Virus genome (UHGV): UHGV-0236124
Origin: a virus
Reading direction: 5' to 3' (one strand)
DNA: 33,147 nucleotides
Numbering within the stretch: position 1 is the first letter of the stretch; every line of letters begins with the position of its first letter. The position numbers were made by a program, and so were the translations under genes. Shown here piece after piece: positions 20,086-29,817 of this stretch. The notes below the pieces were generated by a model. The model was not told the DNA's origin and did not search any database. It saw nothing but the letters and a program-made list of their open reading frames with translations.

Positions 20086-21560
20086 TGGCAATTCTTGATG
20101 ATGTGATTGGCGTTTTTTCACCAGGATGGAAAGCGGCAAGGCTGCGTTCCCGTGCGGTGATTCAGGCTTATGAGGCCGTAAAAACGACGCGGACACACAA
20201 AGCCCGACGGGAGAACCGAACTGCCGACCAGTTAAGCCAGTACGGGGCCGTGTCGTTACGTGAGCAGGCCCGTTACCTTGATAACAACCACGATCTGGTC
20301 ATTGGTGTATTTGACAAGCTGGAAGAACGGGTGGTGGGGAAAAACGGGATTATTGTCGAGCCACATCCGGTATTACGCAATGGGGCCATTGCCCGTGATC
20401 TGGCAGCGGAGATACGCACCCGATGGAGTGAATGGTCTGTCAGTCCGGAAGTCACCGGGCAGTTTACCCGTCCGATGCTGGAACGTCTGATGCTGCGTAC
20501 CTGGCTGCGCGATGGTGAGGTGTTTGCCCAGATGGTTTCCGGGCGCATAAACAGCCTGACGCCTTCTGCCGGTGTTCATTTCTGGCTGGAGGCGCTCGAG
20601 CCGGACTTTATTCCCATGACCAGTGATGAGAGCAACAGGCTGAATCAGGGCGTGTTTGTTGATGACTGGGGGCGTCCCGAAAAATATCTGGTGTATAAAA
20701 GCCGTCCCGTATCCGGGCGGCAGATGGAAACCAAAGAAGTGGATGCAGAGCGAATGCTGCATCTTAAATTTGTTCGCCGTCTGCACCAGATGCGCGGGAC
20801 GTCTTTATTGTCCGGTGTGCTGATCCGCCTCAGCGCCCTGAAAGAGTATGAAGATTCTGAGCTGACTGCAGCAAGGGTCGCCGCTGCTCTGGGGATGTAC
20901 ATCCGCAAAGGCGACGGACAGAGCTATGAAACGGATGGTAATGACAGCAAGGAGAATGAACGCGAGCTTACCATTCAGCCAGGCATTATTTACGACGATC
21001 TGAAACCCGGCGAAGAAATCGGAATGGTGAAGTCGGATCGCCCAAATCCTAACCTTGAAACTTTTCGTAATGCTCAGTTGCGTGCCGTGGCGGCGGGCAG
21101 TCGTCTGAGTTTTTCCAGTACAGCGCGCAACTATAACGGCACTTACAGCGCCCAGCGTCAGGAGCTGGTTGAATCCACTGATGGCTACCTGATCCTGCAG
21201 GACTGGTTTATTGGTGCCGTCACCCGCCCGATGTATCGTGCCTGGCTGAAACAGGCTGTGGCATCCGGTGTTATCAGGCTACCCCGCGATCTTGACCGTT
21301 CTTCACTGTATACCGCGGTGTATTCCGGACCGGTGATGCCGTGGATTGACCCTGTTAAGGAGGCTGAGGCCTGGAAAATCCAGATTCGTGGTGGAGCGGC
21401 GACAGAATCAGACTGGGTACGTGCAGGTGGTCGTAATCCGGATGATGTCAAACGTCGGCGCAAGGCCGAAATTGATGAAAACCGCAAGCTGGACCTGGTA
21501 TTTGATACCGATCCGGCCAGTGATAAAGGAGGCAGCAGTGCCGCAACGAAACGACAGTAG
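20085..21560 (+). CDS. portal protein (lambda gpB-like)
   Basis: ATG overlapping the W stop (TGATG); 491 aa; position and size fit a portal. Confidence 0.8.
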   Translation: MAILDDVIGVFSPGWKAARLRSRAVIQAYEAVKTTRTHKARRENRTADQLSQYGAVSLREQARYLDNNHDLVIGVFDKLEERVVGKNGIIVEPHPVLRNGAIARDLAAEIRTRWSEWSVSPEVTGQFTRPMLERLMLRTWLRDGEVFAQMVSGRINSLTPSAGVHFWLEALEPDFIPMTSDESNRLNQGVFVDDWGRPEKYLVYKSRPVSGRQMETKEVDAERMLHLKFVRRLHQMRGTSLLSGVLIRLSALKEYEDSELTAARVAAALGMYIRKGDGQSYETDGNDSKENERELTIQPGIIYDDLKPGEEIGMVKSDRPNPNLETFRNAQLRAVAAGSRLSFSSTARNYNGTYSAQRQELVESTDGYLILQDWFIGAVTRPMYRAWLKQAVASGVIRLPRDLDRSSLYTAVYSGPVMPWIDPVKEAEAWKIQIRGGAATESDWVRAGGRNPDDVKRRRKAEIDENRKLDLVFDTDPASDKGGSSAATKRQ

Positions 21561-23565
21561 CCGCAGTACACCGACGACCAGTCCGAAGAATAATTCCTGG
21601 TTCAGGATGCAGGCTGGTCACCAGAGTGACGCGGATATTTATATTTATGACGAGATTGGTTTCTGGGGTGTTACAGCGAAGCAGTTTATCAGTGATCTGA
21701 ATGCACTGGGCGATATCACCCACATTAATCTCCATATCAATTCACCGGGTGGCGATGTCTTTGAAGGCATCGCCATTTTTAATGCGCTGAAAACACATGG
21801 TGCGTCCATTACCGTTTATGTCGACGGTGTGGCGGCATCAATGGCGTCGGTCATTGCGATGGTGGGAAACCCGGTCATTATGCCGGAAAACACCTTCATG
21901 ATGATTCATAAACCATTTGGCTTTACGGGCGGTGATGCGGAGGACATGCGCACCTATGCCGACCTGCTCGATAAAGTTGAGGCGGTTCTGTTACCCGCTT
22001 ATGCACAGAAAACCGGGAAAACCACCGATGAAATTGCTGCCATGCTGGCGGATGAGACCTGGATGTCCGGTGCCGAATGTCTGGCACAGGGATTTGCTGA
22101 TCAGGTGACACCAGCCGTTAAGGCAATGGCATGTATTCAGTCAAAACGTACAGAGGAATTTAAAAAGATGCCGGAATCCATTCGAAACATGATTACTCCG
22201 CCACGCAACAGTGCTCCACGCGTACAGGATGATGAACCTGCAGCCTCCCGGACGCCAGTGCAGGCAGCAGCACCCGTGGTGGATGAAAACAGTATCCGTG
22301 CGCAGGTACTGGCAGAGCAAAAAGCGCGTGTAAACGGTATTAATGATCTGTTTGCCATGTTTGGCGGGCGTTATCAGATGCTGCAGGCCCAGTGTCTTGC
22401 CGATCCTGAATGTTCGCTGGAGCAGGCCCGTGAAAAGCTGTTGAACGAGATGGGGCGCGAGTCCACGCCATCCAATAAAAATACCCCGGCTCATATTTAT
22501 GCCGGTAACGGTAATTTTGTGGGGGACGGGATCCGCCAGGCGCTGATGGCGCGTGCCGGATTTGAAAAAAACGAACGTGATAATGTCTACAACGGGATGA
22601 CCCTGCGTGAATATGCCCGTATGTCACTAACTGAACGGGGTATTGGGGTTTCCGGTTATAACCCGATGCAGATGGTCGGTGCGGCGTTCACACACAGTAC
22701 GTCTGACTTCGGTAATATTCTGCTGGATGTTGCGAACAAAGCCATTCTGCAGGGCTGGGAAGATGCCCCTGAAACCTATGAACAGTGGACGCGGAAAGGT
22801 CAGTTGTCTGATTTTAAAATTGCCCATCGTGTGGGTATGGGGGGCTTCAGTGCTCTGCGTCAGGTGCGTGAAGGGGCGGAATATAAATACGTCACCACCG
22901 GAGATAAACAGGCCACTATTGCACTGGCGACCTATGGCGAGCTGTTCAGTATCACCCGTCAGGCCATTATCAATGATGATCTGAATATGCTGACCGATGT
23001 CCCGATGAAACTGGGCCGTGCGGCGAAATCCACTATTGCCGATCTGGTTTATGCCATTCTGACGTCTAACCCGAAAATCTCCACAGATAATGTAAGTCTG
23101 TTCGATAAAGCGAAACATGCAAACGTACTGGAGAGCGCTGCAATGGACGTGGCATCGCTGGATAAAGCCCGCCAGTTGATGCGCGTTCAGAAAGAGGGGG
23201 AGCGTCATCTGAATATTCGTCCTGCGTTCGTACTGGTACCGACGGCGATGGAGTCTGTTGCTAACCAGGTCATTCGCTCCTCAAGTGTCAAGGGGGCTGA
23301 CATTAACGCCGGTATTATTAACCCGGTGAAAGATTTTGCGACCGTTATTGCAGAGCCTCGTCTTGATGATAACAGCCAGACCACCTTCTACCTGGCTGCG
23401 TCAAAAGGCTCCGATACGATTGAAGTGGCTTATCTCAACGGTGTGGATACGCCATATATTGATCAGATGGAGGGCTTCAGTGTGGATGGCGTGACAACGA
23501 AAGTGCGTATTGACGCCGGTGTCGCGCCAGTTGATCACCGCGGTCTGGTGAAATGTACGGCGTAA
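21538..23565 (+). CDS. prohead protease (ClpP/S49-like) fused to major capsid protein
   Basis: GTG at 21538 preceded by AAGGAGG; N-terminal ClpP-like region (IYIYDEIGFWG...INSPGGDVFEGIAIFNAL...MASVIAM) and a C-terminal capsid-like domain in one 675-aa ORF; alternative start ATG 21607. Confidence 0.75.
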   Translation: MPQRNDSSRSTPTTSPKNNSWFRMQAGHQSDADIYIYDEIGFWGVTAKQFISDLNALGDITHINLHINSPGGDVFEGIAIFNALKTHGASITVYVDGVAASMASVIAMVGNPVIMPENTFMMIHKPFGFTGGDAEDMRTYADLLDKVEAVLLPAYAQKTGKTTDEIAAMLADETWMSGAECLAQGFADQVTPAVKAMACIQSKRTEEFKKMPESIRNMITPPRNSAPRVQDDEPAASRTPVQAAAPVVDENSIRAQVLAEQKARVNGINDLFAMFGGRYQMLQAQCLADPECSLEQAREKLLNEMGRESTPSNKNTPAHIYAGNGNFVGDGIRQALMARAGFEKNERDNVYNGMTLREYARMSLTERGIGVSGYNPMQMVGAAFTHSTSDFGNILLDVANKAILQGWEDAPETYEQWTRKGQLSDFKIAHRVGMGGFSALRQVREGAEYKYVTTGDKQATIALATYGELFSITRQAIINDDLNMLTDVPMKLGRAAKSTIADLVYAILTSNPKISTDNVSLFDKAKHANVLESAAMDVASLDKARQLMRVQKEGERHLNIRPAFVLVPTAMESVANQVIRSSSVKGADINAGIINPVKDFATVIAEPRLDDNSQTTFYLAASKGSDTIEVAYLNGVDTPYIDQMEGFSVDGVTTKVRIDAGVAPVDHRGLVKCTA

Positions 23566-23651: not shown

Positions 23652-23975
23652 ATGGCAAAGAATTTTGTAGAAGAAGGAAAAACGGTGGCGATTGTTGCCA
23701 GTGCAGCCATCAGCAGCGGAGATCTGGTGCAGGTGGGCGATGTTTTTGCGGTGGCGCTGACCGATATTCCACAGGGTGAAACAGGCGACGGCATGACCGA
23801 AGGTGTGTTTATGCTGCCTAAGCTGAAAACGGATGACATGAAAACGGGTAAGAAGGTTTATCTGAAGTCCGGAAAAGTTCAGCTGACTAACAGCGGCTCT
23901 GATCCGCTGGTCGGGGTTGTCTGGGCAGATGCCGGAACCAGTGCAGAAGAAGTGCCGGTAAAACTCAATGTCTGA
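23652..23975 (+). CDS. head decoration / capsid-associated small protein (DUF2190-like)
   Basis: 107 aa immediately after the capsid gene; GGAG upstream of the ATG. Confidence 0.55.
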   Translation: MAKNFVEEGKTVAIVASAAISSGDLVQVGDVFAVALTDIPQGETGDGMTEGVFMLPKLKTDDMKTGKKVYLKSGKVQLTNSGSDPLVGVVWADAGTSAEEVPVKLNV

Positions 23976-25231: not shown

Positions 25232-25242
25232 AGGAGGTGGCA

Positions 25243-25986
25243 ATGACCACACCAAATCCACTGGCAAAAACGAAAGGTGCGGGAACGACGTTCTGGATGT
25301 ACACCGGCAAGGGCGATGCGTTTGCGAACCCTTTATCGGACACTGACTGGCTGCGTCTTGCGATGGTGAAGGATCTGCAACCTGGCGAAATGACCGCTGA
25401 TGCAGAAGATGACACTTATCTCGATGATGAAGATGCAGACTGGAAAACGACAACCCAGGGGCAGAAATCCGTTGGTGATACTTCGGCGACGCTGGCCTGG
25501 CGTCCGGGTGACAGCGGGCAGAAAAAACTGGTTCAGTTGTTCGACTCCGGTGAAGTCTGCGCGTTTCGTATCAAATATCCCAACGGCACTGTTGATGTTT
25601 TCCGTGGCTGGCTGAGCTCACTGGGTAAAACCATTGCCTCAAAAGACGTGATGACCCGCACAGTGAAAATCAGCGGTGTGGGGCGTCCGTATCTGGCAGA
25701 GGAAGGCACTGAAACAGTGAGCGTTACCGGGCTGACGGTGGCACCGGCATCTGCCAGTGTAAAAGTGGGAGCAACCACCACGCTGACCTTTACAGTAAAA
25801 CCTGACGGAGCCAGTGACAAAGCGATCAGTGTGCATTCGACAGATCCACAGACTGCCACGGTGACCCTGAACGGGCTTGTGGCCACGGTGAAAGGCGTGA
25901 AGCAGGGCAGTGTCAGCATTGTGGGCATGACTTCTGACGGCGATTTTGTGGCAGTGGCTGCGGTGGCTGTCAGCGCCGCAGGTTAA
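25243..25986 (+). CDS. major tail protein V-like with C-terminal Ig-like domain
   Basis: AAGGAGG 5 nt upstream; KGAGTTFWMYTG...ANPLSDTDWLRLA; C-terminal Ig-like extension. Confidence 0.85.
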   Translation: MTTPNPLAKTKGAGTTFWMYTGKGDAFANPLSDTDWLRLAMVKDLQPGEMTADAEDDTYLDDEDADWKTTTQGQKSVGDTSATLAWRPGDSGQKKLVQLFDSGEVCAFRIKYPNGTVDVFRGWLSSLGKTIASKDVMTRTVKISGVGRPYLAEEGTETVSVTGLTVAPASASVKVGATTTLTFTVKPDGASDKAISVHSTDPQTATVTLNGLVATVKGVKQGSVSIVGMTSDGDFVAVAAVAVSAAG

Positions 25987-26043
25987 CAGGACGATACTCA
26001 TCATTTGCCCCGGTTATCCGGGGCTTTTTTGCAGGTGGAGAAC

Positions 26044-26433
26044 ATGATGTTTCTGAAACAGGGCACGTTTAATTATGAAAAGCAGTCCGTGGTGCTCAGT
26101 GAGCTGTCCGGGCTGCAGAGAATTGAATATCTGGCGTTTGTTCAGCAGCGAACGGCAAAGTTTGATGCCGAAGAGGGAGAACTGCCGGAGGCTGAACGAC
26201 AGATTGCTTTTCTGCGGATGGGGATGGATATCAATGCCTGGCTGGTTTCCCGCTCACTGTGGAATGCGGAACAGTCTCAGGATGTTGAGACGCTTTGCGC
26301 ATCCGTTATTACAACATGGTCGTATGATGCCCTGGGAGCGGGGGCGGAGATGGTTCTGTCGCTGAGCGGTATGGGAGTCATTGAGAATGCCGGGGATTTG
26401 GAGCATGAGGTGCTGACGCCGGAAAAGTCCTGA
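26044..26433 (+). CDS. tail assembly chaperone G-like
   Basis: MMFLKQGTFNYEKQSVVLSELSGLQRIEYLAF resembles lambda G; terminates just after the slippery site. Confidence 0.8.
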   Translation: MMFLKQGTFNYEKQSVVLSELSGLQRIEYLAFVQQRTAKFDAEEGELPEAERQIAFLRMGMDINAWLVSRSLWNAEQSQDVETLCASVITTWSYDALGAGAEMVLSLSGMGVIENAGDLEHEVLTPEKS

Positions 26434-26771
26434 CGCGGGAAATGCAGTTTGTCATGCGGCTTGCCCGGGAGTTCCGGCGGGCAGACTGGCGGCGGATGCT
26501 GTCGGAAATGTCGGCCACTGAGCTTGGTGAGTGGGGCGATTATTTCCGGATGCAGAGCTTCAGTGATGTGTGGATGGATGCGCAGTTTGCCTCGCTGAAG
26601 GCATTGATCGTGAGAATGGTGTCCGGTAGCAGTGATGCTGCGGTGGCTGATTTCAGCCTTTTACCGGAAGAGAACGGGATACCGGAGCGAACGGACGAAG
26701 AACTGATGCATCTTGGGGAAGGTATTTCCGGAGGTGTGCGTTATGGACCAGATAGCCAACCTGGTCATTGA
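26044..26771 (+). CDS. tail assembly chaperone GT fusion via programmed -1 frameshift
   Basis: T frame (26442..26771 in the ORF track) is -1 relative to G and open back to 26409; slippery G GAA AAG at 26421-26427 at the end of G. Confidence 0.6.
26421..26427 (+). other. -1 ribosomal frameshift slippery site (G GAA AAG)
   Basis: A-site AAG to AAA re-pairing is possible; lambda uses G GGA AAG at the equivalent position. Confidence 0.5.
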
Positions 26772-29700
26772 TTTGGGGATTGATGCGGCAGAGTTTAAAA
26801 ATGAAATTCCCCGTATCAAAAACCTTCTGAATGGTGCAGCCAGCGATGCAGAACGGTCTTCTGCCCGTATGCAGCGTTTTATGGAGCGTCAGACTCAGGC
26901 CGCCCGGCAGACAACGCAGGCAGCTTCTTCGGCTGCAACAGCCGCATCCGTCCATGCGCAGACGGTGGAGAAGAACGCACAGGCTCATGAACGCATGGCC
27001 CGCGAGGTGGAGAAAACCCGCCAGCGCATGGAGGCACTGAGCCAGAAAATGCGCGAGGAACAGGCGCAGGCCATGGCTCTGGCGGAGGCTCAGGATAAAG
27101 CGGCTGCTGCGTTTTATCGTCAGATTGACAGTGTGAAACAGGCCAGTGCGGGGCTGCAGGAATTACAGCGTATTCAGCAGCAGATCCGACAGGCCAGAAA
27201 CAGTGGCGGGATTGGTCAGCAGGATTATCTGGCGCTGATTTCTGAGGTTACTGCGAAAACTCGTGTTCTTACACAGGCTGAGGAAGAGGCTACCCGACAG
27301 AAAGTGGCGTTTATCCGTCAGCTTAAAGAGCAGGCAACCCGCCAGAATCTTTCTTCTTCTGAGTTGCTTCGTGCTAAGGCTGCCCAGCTGGGGGTAAGCA
27401 GTGCTGCAGAAGTGTATATCCGCAAAATGGAGCAGGCAGGAAAAGCCACGCATTCGCTGGGTCTGAAAAGTGCAGCGGCCCGCCAGGAGATAGGCGTTCT
27501 GATAGGTGAACTGGCTCGCGGCAATTTAGGTGCGCTGAGGGGATCCGGGATAACGCTGGCTAACCGTGCCGGATGGATAGACACACTGATGTCACCGAAA
27601 GGCATGATGCTGGGCTGGGTTATTGGCGGTATTGCCGCGGCCGTCTATGGTCTGGGTAAAGCCTGGTATGATGGTCAGAAGGAGGGGGAAGAATTTAACC
27701 GCCAGTTGTCGCTGACGGGGCATTATGCCGGAGTCACTGCCGGGCAGCTGTGGACGCTCAGTCGTGCTATTTCCGGGAATGGTATCACGCAACATGCTGC
27801 AGCCGGTGCGCTGGCTCAGGTGGTGGGGAGTGGTGCATTTCGTGGAAACGATATCGGTATGGTGGCGAGAGCTGCCGCACAGATGGAGCGATCGGTTGGC
27901 CAGTCGGTCAGCGATACCATAAATCAGTTTAAGCGGCTGAAGGATGATCCTGTAAATGCCGCGAAGGCTCTGGACAATGAGCTGCATTTTCTTACTGCCA
28001 CTCAGCTTGAGCAGATACGTGTCCTTGGGGATCAGGGACGGTCCAGTGATGCTGCACGGATAGCCATGTCTGCACTGGCAGAGGAAACCGGTCGGCGTAC
28101 TGCGGATATTGATAATAACCTCAATGCGCTTGGCAGTACGCTGAAGTATCTGTCTGATTTGTGGAGTCGTTTCTGGGATGCGGCCATGAATATTGGTCGT
28201 GAAGACTCGCTGGATGAACAGATTGCCGCTTTACAGGAGAAAGTGTCGCGGGCGAAAAGACTCCCCTGGACGGCATCATCTTCTCAGGTTGAATACGATC
28301 AGCAGCGTCTTAACGATCTTCAGGAGAAAAAACGCCAGAAGGATTTGCAGGATGCAAAAGAGCAGGCAGAGCGGAATTATCAGGAGCAACAGAAACGACG
28401 TAATGCTGAAAATGCTGCACTGAACCGGATGAATGAAACGGAAGCAGCACGACATCAGCGTGAAATTGCGCGTATTAATGCCATGCAGTACGCCGACCAG
28501 GCTGTCAGGGATGCGGCGATACAACGTGAAAATGAACGTTACGAGAAAGCCCTGGCATCCGGTAAGAAAAAAACACGCGAAACCCGTAATGATGAGGCCA
28601 CCCGGTTATTGCTGCAGTACAGTCAGCAACAGGCACAGGTGGAAGGGCAGATTGCTGCTGCAAGACAGTCAGCAGGCATTGCCACTGAAAAGATGACAGA
28701 AGCGCATAAACAGCTTCTGGCTCTGCAGCAGCGCATCAGCGACCTGGACGGGAAAAAACTGACGGCAGATGAAAAGAGTGTGCTGGCCCGTAAAGATGAA
28801 CTGATTCAGGCACTGACGCTGCTGGATGTAAAACAGCAGGAGCTTCAGAAACAGACGGCACTCAACGAGCTGAAGAAAAAAACAATTCAGCTGACCAGTC
28901 AACTGGCTGAAGAAGAGCGCGCTCAGCGTCAGCAACATGACCTGGATATCGCCACGGTGGGTATGGGTGATCAGCAGAGGCAGCGATATCAGGTACAACT
29001 GAGTCTTCGCCAGAAATACCAGCAACAGCTGGAGCAGTTGAGGCGGGATAGTGAGCAGAAAGGGACATATAACACGGATGACTACAGAAAGGCCGAGCAG
29101 GCGCTGACGGAGAGCCTGAACCGACAACTGAATGAGAATCGCCGTTATTGGCAACAGCTTGAAATTGCTCAGGGTAACTGGAAAAACGGTGCTATGCGGG
29201 CGTTTCAGAATTTCACGGCAGATGCGGATAATGCGGCAGGCACTGCTGAGCAGATGCTTACAGCGGCATTTAACAGTGCAGGTAATGCACTGGCAACGTT
29301 CTGTACTACCGGAAAACTGAACTTCAAATCTTTTACCGCCTCGCTCCTTTCTGATCTGGCAAAAATCATGGCTCAGATGTCCATGATGCAGGCAGTTAAG
29401 GGGATTGGTTCGGCGTTTGGCTGGGGGAGTGCAGCAACTGCCAGTGTGACGCCCAATGCTGATGGTGGTGTTTATCAGTCTGCTGATTTGAGTCGCTACA
29501 GTGGCACGGTGGTTAACCGTCCGACGTTTTTTGCTTTTGCAAAAGGTGCAGGTGTGATGGGGGAAGCTGGGCCTGAAGCCATTCTGCCTCTGCGTCGTGG
29601 TGCTGACGGTAAGCTGGGGGTTGTGGCGGATATTGGTGGTTCAGGTATGGCGATGTTTGCCCCGCAGTACAACATCGAGATCAATAACGATGGCACGAAC

Positions 29701-29817
29701 GGGCAGATAGGTCCGGCTGCCCTGAAGGTGGTTTATGACCTCGGGAAAAAAGCAGCAGCGGACTTTATGCAACAGCAGGCCCGTGATGGTGGTCGGTTAA
29801 GTGGAGCATATCGGTAA
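26743..29817 (+). CDS. tail tape measure protein (H-like)
   Basis: about 1024 aa; GGAGGTG 6 nt upstream of ATG 26743; long Q/A/R-rich coiled-coil body; between GT and M. Confidence 0.85.
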   Translation: MDQIANLVIDLGIDAAEFKNEIPRIKNLLNGAASDAERSSARMQRFMERQTQAARQTTQAASSAATAASVHAQTVEKNAQAHERMAREVEKTRQRMEALSQKMREEQAQAMALAEAQDKAAAAFYRQIDSVKQASAGLQELQRIQQQIRQARNSGGIGQQDYLALISEVTAKTRVLTQAEEEATRQKVAFIRQLKEQATRQNLSSSELLRAKAAQLGVSSAAEVYIRKMEQAGKATHSLGLKSAAARQEIGVLIGELARGNLGALRGSGITLANRAGWIDTLMSPKGMMLGWVIGGIAAAVYGLGKAWYDGQKEGEEFNRQLSLTGHYAGVTAGQLWTLSRAISGNGITQHAAAGALAQVVGSGAFRGNDIGMVARAAAQMERSVGQSVSDTINQFKRLKDDPVNAAKALDNELHFLTATQLEQIRVLGDQGRSSDAARIAMSALAEETGRRTADIDNNLNALGSTLKYLSDLWSRFWDAAMNIGREDSLDEQIAALQEKVSRAKRLPWTASSSQVEYDQQRLNDLQEKKRQKDLQDAKEQAERNYQEQQKRRNAENAALNRMNETEAARHQREIARINAMQYADQAVRDAAIQRENERYEKALASGKKKTRETRNDEATRLLLQYSQQQAQVEGQIAAARQSAGIATEKMTEAHKQLLALQQRISDLDGKKLTADEKSVLARKDELIQALTLLDVKQQELQKQTALNELKKKTIQLTSQLAEEERAQRQQHDLDIATVGMGDQQRQRYQVQLSLRQKYQQQLEQLRRDSEQKGTYNTDDYRKAEQALTESLNRQLNENRRYWQQLEIAQGNWKNGAMRAFQNFTADADNAAGTAEQMLTAAFNSAGNALATFCTTGKLNFKSFTASLLSDLAKIMAQMSMMQAVKGIGSAFGWGSAATASVTPNADGGVYQSADLSRYSGTVVNRPTFFAFAKGAGVMGEAGPEAILPLRRGADGKLGVVADIGGSGMAMFAPQYNIEINNDGTNGQIGPAALKVVYDLGKKAAADFMQQQARDGGRLSGAYR

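What the first reader, a model, noticed from the sequence alone, without database searches (positions are those of the whole stretch)
26409..26445. G/GT programmed -1 frameshift with a non-canonical slippery heptamer
The T frame is open from 26409 and in the -1 frame relative to G. The only slippery sequence at the overlap is G GAA AAG (26421-26427), versus G GGA AAG in lambda. P-site re-pairing is imperfect, so frameshift efficiency may differ.
Basis: partly seen in the sequence, partly recalled or inferred. Interest (0 to 1): 0.4.

Follow-up and report, generated by a model that had tools for sequence, protein, structure and literature searches.

The report
Tail chaperone G/GT frameshift site
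This is the ordinary lambda-type tail-chaperone (G/GT) -1 frameshift site of a common E. coli prophage; its slightly off-consensus slippery sequence G GAA AAG is widespread among the relatives sampled and is already annotated as a slip site in phage N15.

Summary
Observation confirmed. G (26044/26047-26433, Pfam Phage_TAC_2) ends CCG GAA AAG TCC TGA. The T frame (Pfam Phage_tail_T) is open from 26409, lies at -1 to G, and overlaps it by 25 nt. AAG (26425-26427) is the only overlap codon whose tRNA can re-pair cognately at -1.

Interpretation supported. Lambda's G GGA AAG sits at the homologous position. In 467 related loci (28 clusters) an in-frame A_AAR is always at that spot. Purifying selection switches from the G frame to the T frame exactly there. 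18 of 28 clusters, including Gifsy-2 with the identical site, have no start codon for T.

It is not new. G GAA AAG is the commonest variant sampled (14 of 28 clusters; phi80, Gifsy-2, mEp460, cdtI). The N15 GenBank record annotates exactly this heptamer as the -1 slippery sequence.

I found no downstream RNA structure. An upstream SD-like GAGGUG lies at the right spacing, but it shows no selection once amino-acid composition is controlled.

In vitro data (Peng 2019) show G GAA AAG slips less than G GGA AAG, so efficiency is probably low. It has not been measured in this context.

RefSeq and GenBank annotate T as a separate 109-aa ORF. The GT fusion is absent from a 15-billion-protein collection, which is an annotation gap rather than a discovery.

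The parts
25237..25986 (+). Major tail tube protein gene (lambda V homologue). The ORF runs from GTG 25237; PGAP calls 25243-25986.
   Evidence: Pfam Phage_TTP_12 6.4e-67 plus Big_2; PGAP annotation of the identical prophage.
26007..26030 (+). Terminator-like GC hairpin followed by T6, between V and G.
   Evidence: Scan hit with 7 GC pairs. The same position is annotated as a rho-independent terminator in the mEp460, Ayreon and N15 records.
26044..26433 (+). Tail assembly chaperone G. Start is ATG 26044 or 26047 (PGAP uses 26047); stop is TGA 26431-26433.
   Evidence: Pfam Phage_TAC_2 7.4e-40; 33% identity to lambda G and 55% to Gifsy-2 G.
26407..26412 (+). SD-like GAGGUG, 9-10 nt 5' of the heptamer. 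A possible local stimulator, but not supported as a conserved element.
   Evidence: Anti-SD duplex -9.2 kcal/mol. The spacing falls in the 9-14 nt range reported for -1 stimulation. GAGG is invariant in the 108 close relatives examined. No excess over synonymous-codon resampling: 15% of resamples match the window, and family Wilcoxon p=0.47.
26409..26771 (+). T reading frame, -1 relative to G. It is open from 26409, with its stop at 26769-26771.
   Evidence: Pfam Phage_tail_T 5.1e-15; frame geometry.
26421..26427 (+). Shift site G_GAA_AAG. tRNA-Lys re-pairs AAG->AAA. tRNA-Glu moves GAA->GGA with a central G.U.
   Evidence: Homologous to lambda G_GGA_AAG. Invariant in the window's cluster. The same heptamer is annotated as the slip site in N15.
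26427..26771 (+). T-domain coding part of the predicted GT fusion. GT = 26044/26047..26427 joined to 26427..26768, giving 242/241 aa with junction ...LTPEK|VLTREMQF...
   Evidence: Translation. Codon-position variability shows the T frame is the selected frame from nt 7 of the heptamer onward.
26442..26444 (+). ATG used as the start of a stand-alone T in public annotation. A second ATG lies at 26454.
   Evidence: PGAP and GenBank CDS. Anti-SD duplex is only -1.1 kcal/mol for 26442 and -4.0 for 26454, against -7.0 for the G start. 22 of 28 clusters have no ATG in the stretch from the opening of the T frame to the LAREF motif.
26743..29817 (+). Tape measure protein gene (lambda H homologue); it overlaps the end of T by 29 nt.
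   Evidence: Pfam TMP_2 2.3e-49, Tape_meas_lam_C, TMP_4.

Best explanation
This is the G/GT tail assembly chaperone recoding site of a mEp460/cdtI-type lambdoid prophage of E. coli. Most ribosomes translate G and terminate at TGA 26431. A small fraction slip back one nucleotide at G_GAA_AAG (26421-26427). tRNA-Lys (mnm5s2UUU) moves from AAG to AAA. tRNA-Glu either re-pairs weakly with GGA or simply lets go of the shared A. Translation then continues with GUC CUG ACG... to give a ~242-aa GT fusion (junction ...LTPEK-VLTRE...). By analogy with lambda, the G part binds the tape measure protein and the T part recruits the major tail protein, and GT is needed in small amounts relative to G. Shown here: homology, geometry, position of the site, its conservation, the switch of the selected frame at the site, and the absence of T start codons in most relatives. 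Inferred: that the shift occurs in this phage, its efficiency (probably low, at or below lambda's few percent), and whether one or two tRNAs slip.
For: G and T are Pfam Phage_TAC_2 and Phage_tail_T and lie between the V and H homologues. T is at -1 to G with a 25-nt overlap, and AAG is the only cognate re-pairing codon in it. Lambda's G GGA AAG aligns to the same position, and T homology (GKV...E..F..LARE) starts exactly there. In all 467 loci (28 clusters) an A_AAR lies in the G frame inside the overlap at that spot. Heptamer nt 4-6 are invariant. Variability peaks at codon position 3 of the G frame upstream (0.41/0.41/0.65) and of the T frame downstream (0.24/0.20/0.43). 18 of 28 clusters have no ATG, GTG or TTG for T; this includes Gifsy-2, which has the identical CCG GAA AAG TCC TGA. 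The records that carry the heptamer are deposited as complete phage genomes: N15 and phi80 and mEp460 and Ayreon. The N15 record annotates GGAAAAG as the 'slippery sequence for -1 translational frameshift', and the Gifsy-2 record calls its T 'part of G+G' frameshift hybrid protein'. A_AAG is the most shift-prone tetramer in E. coli, and NNA_AAG sites are used by IS1222 and occur in B. subtilis cdd.
Against: There is no direct evidence of a GT product for this phage. In a reconstituted system AUG GAA AAG gave mainly 0-frame product, whereas G GGA AAG shifted readily. Tetramer motifs without a stimulator were barely above background in vivo (0.147% against 0.112%). No downstream structure was found (z=-1.0; family mean z=+0.37). 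The upstream SD-like element shows no sign of selection. The window, unlike most relatives, has two in-frame ATGs just after the G stop, so some free T cannot be excluded.
Confidence: 0.85

Rival explanations
1. T is made on its own, as public annotation implies, by initiation or termination-reinitiation at ATG 26442 (8 nt after the G stop) or ATG 26454. No frameshift would be needed.
For: Two in-frame ATGs exist. ATG 26454 has a modest SD-like match (-4.0 kcal/mol). Closeness to the G stop would allow coupling. RefSeq PGAP and the phage records annotate a 109-aa T, and that protein is on record on at least 1000 contigs.
Against: 18 of 28 related clusters have no ATG, GTG or TTG in that stretch and 22 of 28 have no ATG. 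Gifsy-2, with the same slip context, has none. ATG 26442 is CTG in the nearest other cluster, from Citrobacter. The T frame is under coding constraint from the heptamer onward, upstream of these ATGs. The SD for ATG 26442 is negligible (-1.1 kcal/mol). In lambda the T domain acts only when tethered to G (review). Gene callers need a start codon, so the annotation is not independent evidence.
Confidence: 0.07
2. The site is a decayed or non-functional remnant. GGA->GAA weakened lambda's heptamer and this prophage makes too little GT.
For: G GAA AAG is much less slippery than G GGA AAG in vitro. No stimulatory element was detected.
Against: The heptamer is invariant in the window's cluster and present in 14 of 28 clusters. 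It occurs in records deposited as complete phage genomes, several with a named E. coli host (N15, phi80, mEp460, Ayreon, cdtI). The module is in 1848 of 5426 complete E. coli genomes at 95% identity or more. Decay would produce scattered variants, not conservation.
Confidence: 0.04
3. The frame change happens at the RNA level: RNA polymerase slips on the A run and inserts or deletes an A.
For: The site contains a short A run (AAAA).
Against: Four A's is far shorter than the runs of about 9 or more reported for productive transcriptional slippage (general knowledge; the held review was not checked on this point). Variants such as G GCA AAA and G GTA AAG have only three or four A's. The conserved phase of A_AAR relative to the G codons is a translational feature, not a transcriptional one.
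Confidence: 0.01

Closest known systems
Bacteriophage lambda G/GT programmed -1 frameshift (G_GGA_AAG; Levin, Hendrix & Casjens 1993; Xu, Hendrix & Duda 2004, 2013, 2014)
   Same: The G and T proteins are homologous (33% and 38% identity; same Pfam families). The gene order V-G-T-H is the same. T is at -1 to G. The shift site is at the homologous position. The A-site codon is the same (AAG->AAA). No downstream structure was detected here.
   Different: The P-site codon is GAA (Glu) rather than GGA (Gly), so -1 re-pairing has a central G.U instead of being near-cognate. The G stop follows after 1 codon rather than 5. T is shorter (114 aa against 144 aa after the junction).
Phage N15 genes 14/15 (GenBank NC_001901)
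   Same: The heptamer GGAAAAG is identical, lies in the homologous G/T overlap, and is explicitly annotated 'slippery sequence for -1 translational frameshift'. T is 43% identical. phi80 and mEp043 share this arrangement.
   Different: Five codons lie between AAG and the G stop in N15 and phi80, against one here. There is no SD-like element upstream in N15 or phi80.
Salmonella phage Gifsy-2 STM1039/STM1041.1n
   Same: The local sequence CCG GAA AAG TCC TGA is identical. G is 55% and T 52% identical. The record describes T as part of a G+G' frameshift hybrid protein.
   Different: Gifsy-2 has no in-frame start codon after the site, whereas the window has two ATGs.
NNA_AAG hexanucleotide / A_AAG tetranucleotide -1 shift sites (IS1222 G_CGA_AAG, B. 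subtilis cdd A_CGA_AAG; Licznar 2003, Sharma 2014, as summarised in Atkins 2016)
   Same: tRNA-Lys slips from AAG to AAA while the 5' codon's tRNA cannot re-pair cognately. This is what the site works like.
   Different: Those cases rely on, or were assayed with, a downstream pseudoknot or hairpin, and none is detectable here. In this window the first heptamer base (G) still allows partial P-site re-pairing.
E. coli dnaX A_AAA_AAG
   Same: The same A-site lysine slip, and an SD-like sequence about 10 nt upstream.
   Different: dnaX has a fully slippery P-site codon, a required downstream stem-loop and an efficiency of about 50-80%. Here the P-site match is partial, no stem-loop is seen, and the SD-like element is not supported as a selected feature.

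Membership tests
Lambda-type tail assembly chaperone G/GT -1 frameshift | Gene pair located between the major tail protein gene and the tape measure gene. | tested here: met
   V homologue 25237-25986, G, T, then H homologue 26743-29817.
Lambda-type tail assembly chaperone G/GT -1 frameshift | Upstream ORF homologous to gpG and downstream ORF homologous to gpT. | tested here: met
   PF06894 7.4e-40 and PF06223 5.1e-15; BLASTP to lambda G 1.4e-16 and T 2.5e-27.
Lambda-type tail assembly chaperone G/GT -1 frameshift | T frame is -1 relative to G and overlaps its 3' end. | tested here: met
   25-nt overlap, 26409-26433.
Lambda-type tail assembly chaperone G/GT -1 frameshift | A shift-prone site in the overlap, at the position homologous to lambda's, where the A-site tRNA can re-pair at -1. 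| tested here: met
   G_GAA_AAG at 26421-26427 aligns with lambda G_GGA_AAG. A_AAR is present in 467 of 467 loci.
Lambda-type tail assembly chaperone G/GT -1 frameshift | T has no translation start of its own. | tested here: inconclusive
   The window has ATGs at 26442 and 26454 with weak SD matches (-1.1 and -4.0 kcal/mol). 18 of 28 related clusters have no start codon at all.
Lambda-type tail assembly chaperone G/GT -1 frameshift | A GT fusion protein is made at a few percent of G and is required for tail assembly. | not testable with these tools
   Needs Western blot, mass spectrometry, a reporter or genetics. The GT sequence is absent from the protein collection, which reflects annotation only.
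Canonical X_XXY_YYZ tandem-slippage heptamers | Both the P-site and A-site tRNAs can re-pair cognately or by wobble at -1 (XXX and YYY triplets). | tested here: not met
   The A site is fine (AAG->AAA). The P site moves GAA->GGA, a second-position G.U. The site is therefore intermediate between a heptamer and a hexamer motif.
NNA_AAG hexanucleotide / Z_ZZN tetranucleotide -1 motifs | A_AAG in the zero frame with a 5' codon that cannot re-pair cognately. | tested here: met
   GAA_AAG. Family variants G_GCA_AAA, G_GUA_AAG and A/C_GAA_AAG show that P-site re-pairing is dispensable in relatives.
NNA_AAG hexanucleotide / Z_ZZN tetranucleotide -1 motifs | A flanking stimulator (downstream structure or upstream SD) raises shifting above background. 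| tested here: inconclusive
   No downstream structure and no Rfam match. An SD-like GAGGUG is present at 9-10 nt, but it shows no excess over synonymous resampling.

The most novel reading that the evidence does not exclude
Across lambda-type G/T chaperone genes of Enterobacterales, the selected element may be just the single-tRNA-Lys slip A_AAR. In the 28 clusters the 5' codon is GAA, GCA, GUA, GGA or AAA, and heptamer base 1 is G, A or C, so P-site re-pairing looks dispensable. Canonical heptamers like lambda's are then the minority (5 of 28 clusters). Switching the 5' codon could be how these phages tune the G:GT ratio without any RNA structure. If so, the textbook lambda site would be atypical of its own family, and the family would be a natural series for measuring how P-site codon identity sets -1 efficiency in vivo.
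Probability: 0.3. Interest if true: 0.35.

Novelty: already known. Interest (0 to 1): 0.15.

Why it matters
The practical value is for annotation. This G/T module is present in about a third of complete E. coli genomes (1848 of 5426). RefSeq and GenBank records annotate it as two separate genes, with T starting at an ATG that most relatives lack. The predicted 242-aa GT fusion is absent from a 15-billion-protein collection. Marking the slippage would correct a very large number of records. Scientifically it adds little. The G/GT frameshift is a textbook case, and this exact heptamer is already marked as the slip site in N15. The family survey offers a modest lead on how weak, stimulator-free slip sites are tuned.

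Tried and rejected
1. Downstream stimulatory RNA structure. Folding 26428-26540 gave z=-1.04. The +4..+63 segments of 20 cluster representatives gave a mean z of +0.37. There was no Rfam match. Rejected.

2. Upstream SD-like stimulator. Compared with G-gene background, SD-like strength 6-20 nt upstream looked enriched (Mann-Whitney p=1e-4). The effect vanished when the amino-acid sequence was held fixed and synonymous codons were resampled (Wilcoxon p=0.47; 15% of resamples matched the window). N15 and phi80, which have the same heptamer, have no such element. I treat it as a by-product of the acidic C-terminal tail of G. A local effect of GAGGUG in this phage is not excluded.

3. Other shift sites in the 25-nt overlap. 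None has re-pairing potential.

4. Stop-codon-assisted ('shifty stop') slippage. This is plausible for the 11 clusters in which TAG or TAA directly follows AAR. It does not apply here, because UCC intervenes and tRNA-Ser cannot re-pair on GUC.

5. Finding the GT fusion in protein databases. Exact look-up of both start variants found nothing.

6. Reading Xu et al. 2004 and Licznar et al. 2003. Neither is held. Their content is cited only through the Atkins 2016 review, or marked as my own recollection.

Full report
WHAT IS THERE

The window is a lambdoid prophage of E. coli. The 1001-base stretch around the finding is 97-99.7% identical to 17 phage records, including Ayreon, mEp460 and cdtI. 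The 728-base G-T stretch is found in 1848 of 5426 complete E. coli genomes. Bases 141-24000 match strain YJ3 at 100%.

The finding lies between two tail genes. Upstream is the major tail tube gene (25237-25986; Pfam Phage_TTP_12, 6e-67). Downstream is the tape measure gene (26743-29817; TMP_2, 2e-49). The two ORFs between them are homologues of lambda G and T:
- 26044-26430 matches Phage_TAC_2 (7e-40).
- The frame open from 26409 matches Phage_tail_T (5e-15).

G ends ...GAG GTG CTG ACG CCG GAA AAG TCC TGA, with the stop at 26431-26433. The T frame is at -1 to G. It follows a TGA at 26406-26408 and runs to 26771, so the overlap is 25 nt.

GGAAAAG occupies 26421-26427 in phase G_GAA_AAG. Among the overlap codons, only AAG->AAA re-pairs cognately at -1. 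GAA->GGA gives two Watson-Crick pairs and a central G.U. Every other codon matches at no more than one position.

The heptamer on its own is not significant. It occurs 10 times in the window against 5.2 expected. Its phase, location and conservation are what matter.

COMPARATIVE EVIDENCE

In lambda, G_GGA_AAG lies at the homologous position, and the T-frame alignment with the window starts right there and is ungapped (GKVFDGELSFALKLARE against GKVLTREMQFVMRLARE).

I collected 467 loci encoding relatives of T from genomes, viral contigs and named phages. They fall into 28 clusters at 85% T-domain identity. Every locus has an in-frame A_AAR in the G/T overlap at the homologous place. The commonest heptamer per cluster is distributed as follows:

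| Heptamer | Clusters | Examples |
|---|---|---|
| GGAAAAG | 14 | window, phi80, N15, Gifsy-2, Proteus, Klebsiella, Citrobacter, Sodalis |
| GGCAAAA | 5 | |
| GGGAAAG | 2 | lambda |
| AAAAAAG | 2 | Stx phages |
| AGAAAAG (with CGAAAAG) | 2 | |
| GGTAAAG | 1 | |
| GGAAAAA | 1 | |
| GGGAAAA | 1 | |

Heptamer positions 4-6 are invariant, and position 3 is the most variable. Upstream of the site, variability peaks at the third codon position of the G frame (0.41/0.41/0.65). From nt 7 onward it peaks at the third position of the T frame (0.24/0.20/0.43). The selected reading frame therefore switches at the heptamer.

Within the window's own cluster (109 loci; 108 were scanned) the heptamer never varies, and no column varies from -4 to +8.

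THE INDEPENDENT-START RIVAL

Public records annotate T as a 109-aa protein starting at ATG 26442. That sequence is on at least 1000 contigs, whereas the predicted GT fusion is not in the collection at all.

Several results argue against an independent start:
- 18 of 28 clusters have no ATG, GTG or TTG between the opening of the T frame and the conserved LAREF motif, and 22 have no ATG.
- Gifsy-2 has the identical CCG GAA AAG TCC TGA and no start codon.
- ATG 26442 has essentially no SD match (-1.1 kcal/mol, against -7.0 for the G start).
- ATG 26442 is CTG in the nearest other cluster.

Some free T made by reinitiation in this particular phage cannot be excluded. It cannot be how the family makes T.

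MECHANISM AND LIKELY EFFICIENCY

A_AAG is the most shift-prone tetramer in E. coli, because the single tRNA-Lys reads AAA better than AAG. NNA_AAG sites, in which the 5' tRNA cannot re-pair, are used by IS1222 and occur in B. subtilis cdd.

The exact sequence AUG GAA AAG was used by Peng et al. 2019 as the 'less slippery' comparison to G GGA AAG. They attributed this to the second-position mismatch of tRNA-Glu on GGA, and it gave mainly 0-frame product. Tetramers without a stimulator were barely above background in vivo.

I found no downstream structure and no Rfam match. An SD-like GAGGUG sits 9-10 nt upstream, within the 9-14 nt range reported for -1 stimulation. An apparent family-wide enrichment of such elements disappeared once the amino-acid sequence was held fixed, so I do not claim it as a stimulator.

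The shift is therefore probably inefficient, at or below lambda's few percent. That would still fit the biology, since lambda needs G:GT of about 30:1. Whether one tRNA or two slip cannot be resolved here. The family variants with no P-site re-pairing potential (G_GCA_AAA, G_GUA_AAG, A/C_GAA_AAG) suggest that the lysine slip is the essential event.

COMPARISON WITH WHAT IS KNOWN

This is a member of the lambda-type G/GT recoding family. Every sequence-testable defining feature is met, except that the window has potential start codons for T.

It is not a canonical X_XXY_YYZ site. It behaves as an intermediate between the heptamer class and the NNA_AAG hexamer class.

It is not new. The N15 GenBank record marks GGAAAAG at 10027-10033 as the 'slippery sequence for -1 translational frameshift'. 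The Gifsy-2 record calls its T 'part of G+G' frameshift hybrid protein'. phi80 carries the same heptamer.

VERDICT

The useful outputs are two. The first is an annotation correction: GT is missing from RefSeq and GenBank for a module present in about a third of complete E. coli genomes. The second is the side observation that lambda's canonical heptamer is the minority form among the relatives sampled. That sampling is biased towards Enterobacterales and towards the queries I chose.

Noticed in passing
window 26007-26030: A strong terminator-like hairpin (7 GC pairs followed by T6) lies between the major tail gene V and G. The same position is annotated as a rho-independent terminator in the mEp460, Ayreon and N15 records. 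It may lower transcription of G/T/H relative to V.
   Followed up: partly
window 26442-26771, and the RefSeq/GenBank records seen: T is annotated everywhere as a stand-alone 109-aa protein with no ribosomal slippage. The predicted 241/242-aa GT fusion is absent from a 15-billion-protein collection, while the 109-aa form is on at least 1000 contigs.
   Followed up: yes
related loci L003-L467: The G stop codon lies 0 codons (11 clusters), 1 codon (9) or 5 codons (8) after the AAR codon, and never at any other distance. Where it follows directly (AAG UAG or AAG UAA), slow termination could help a P-site tRNA-Lys slip ('shifty stop'). The fixed distances may instead simply reflect conserved T-frame residues.
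   Followed up: partly
related loci, clusters L406 and L303: Close relatives (at least 85% T identity) differ in heptamer type: 31 A_AAA_AAG against 30 G_GGA_AAG in one cluster, and 51 G_GAA_AAG against 1 G_GGA_AAA in the phi80 cluster. Slip-site variants therefore interconvert readily.
   Followed up: no
window 26407-26412: SD-like GAGGUG lies 9-10 nt upstream of the heptamer, and GAGG is invariant in the 108 close relatives examined. It is not enriched beyond what the acidic G tail's amino-acid sequence predicts.
   Followed up: yes
window 21538-23565: A single ORF encodes a ClpP-like prohead protease fused to the major capsid protein (PGAP name). The mechanical ORF list extends it to a TTG at 21346.
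   Followed up: no
window about 768-872 and 1125-1697: The left end of the window holds a partial tRNA-dihydrouridine synthase gene fragment, which may mark the prophage attachment site. Next to it is a Panacea-domain protein gene.
   Followed up: no
window 23871-23877 and 27439-27445, among others: GGAAAAG occurs 10 times in the window against 5.2 expected (5 of 100 shuffles reach 10). The copy at 23871 is in phase GGA_AAA_G near the end of the DUF2190 head gene. I did not examine whether any other copy sits at a gene overlap.
   Followed up: no
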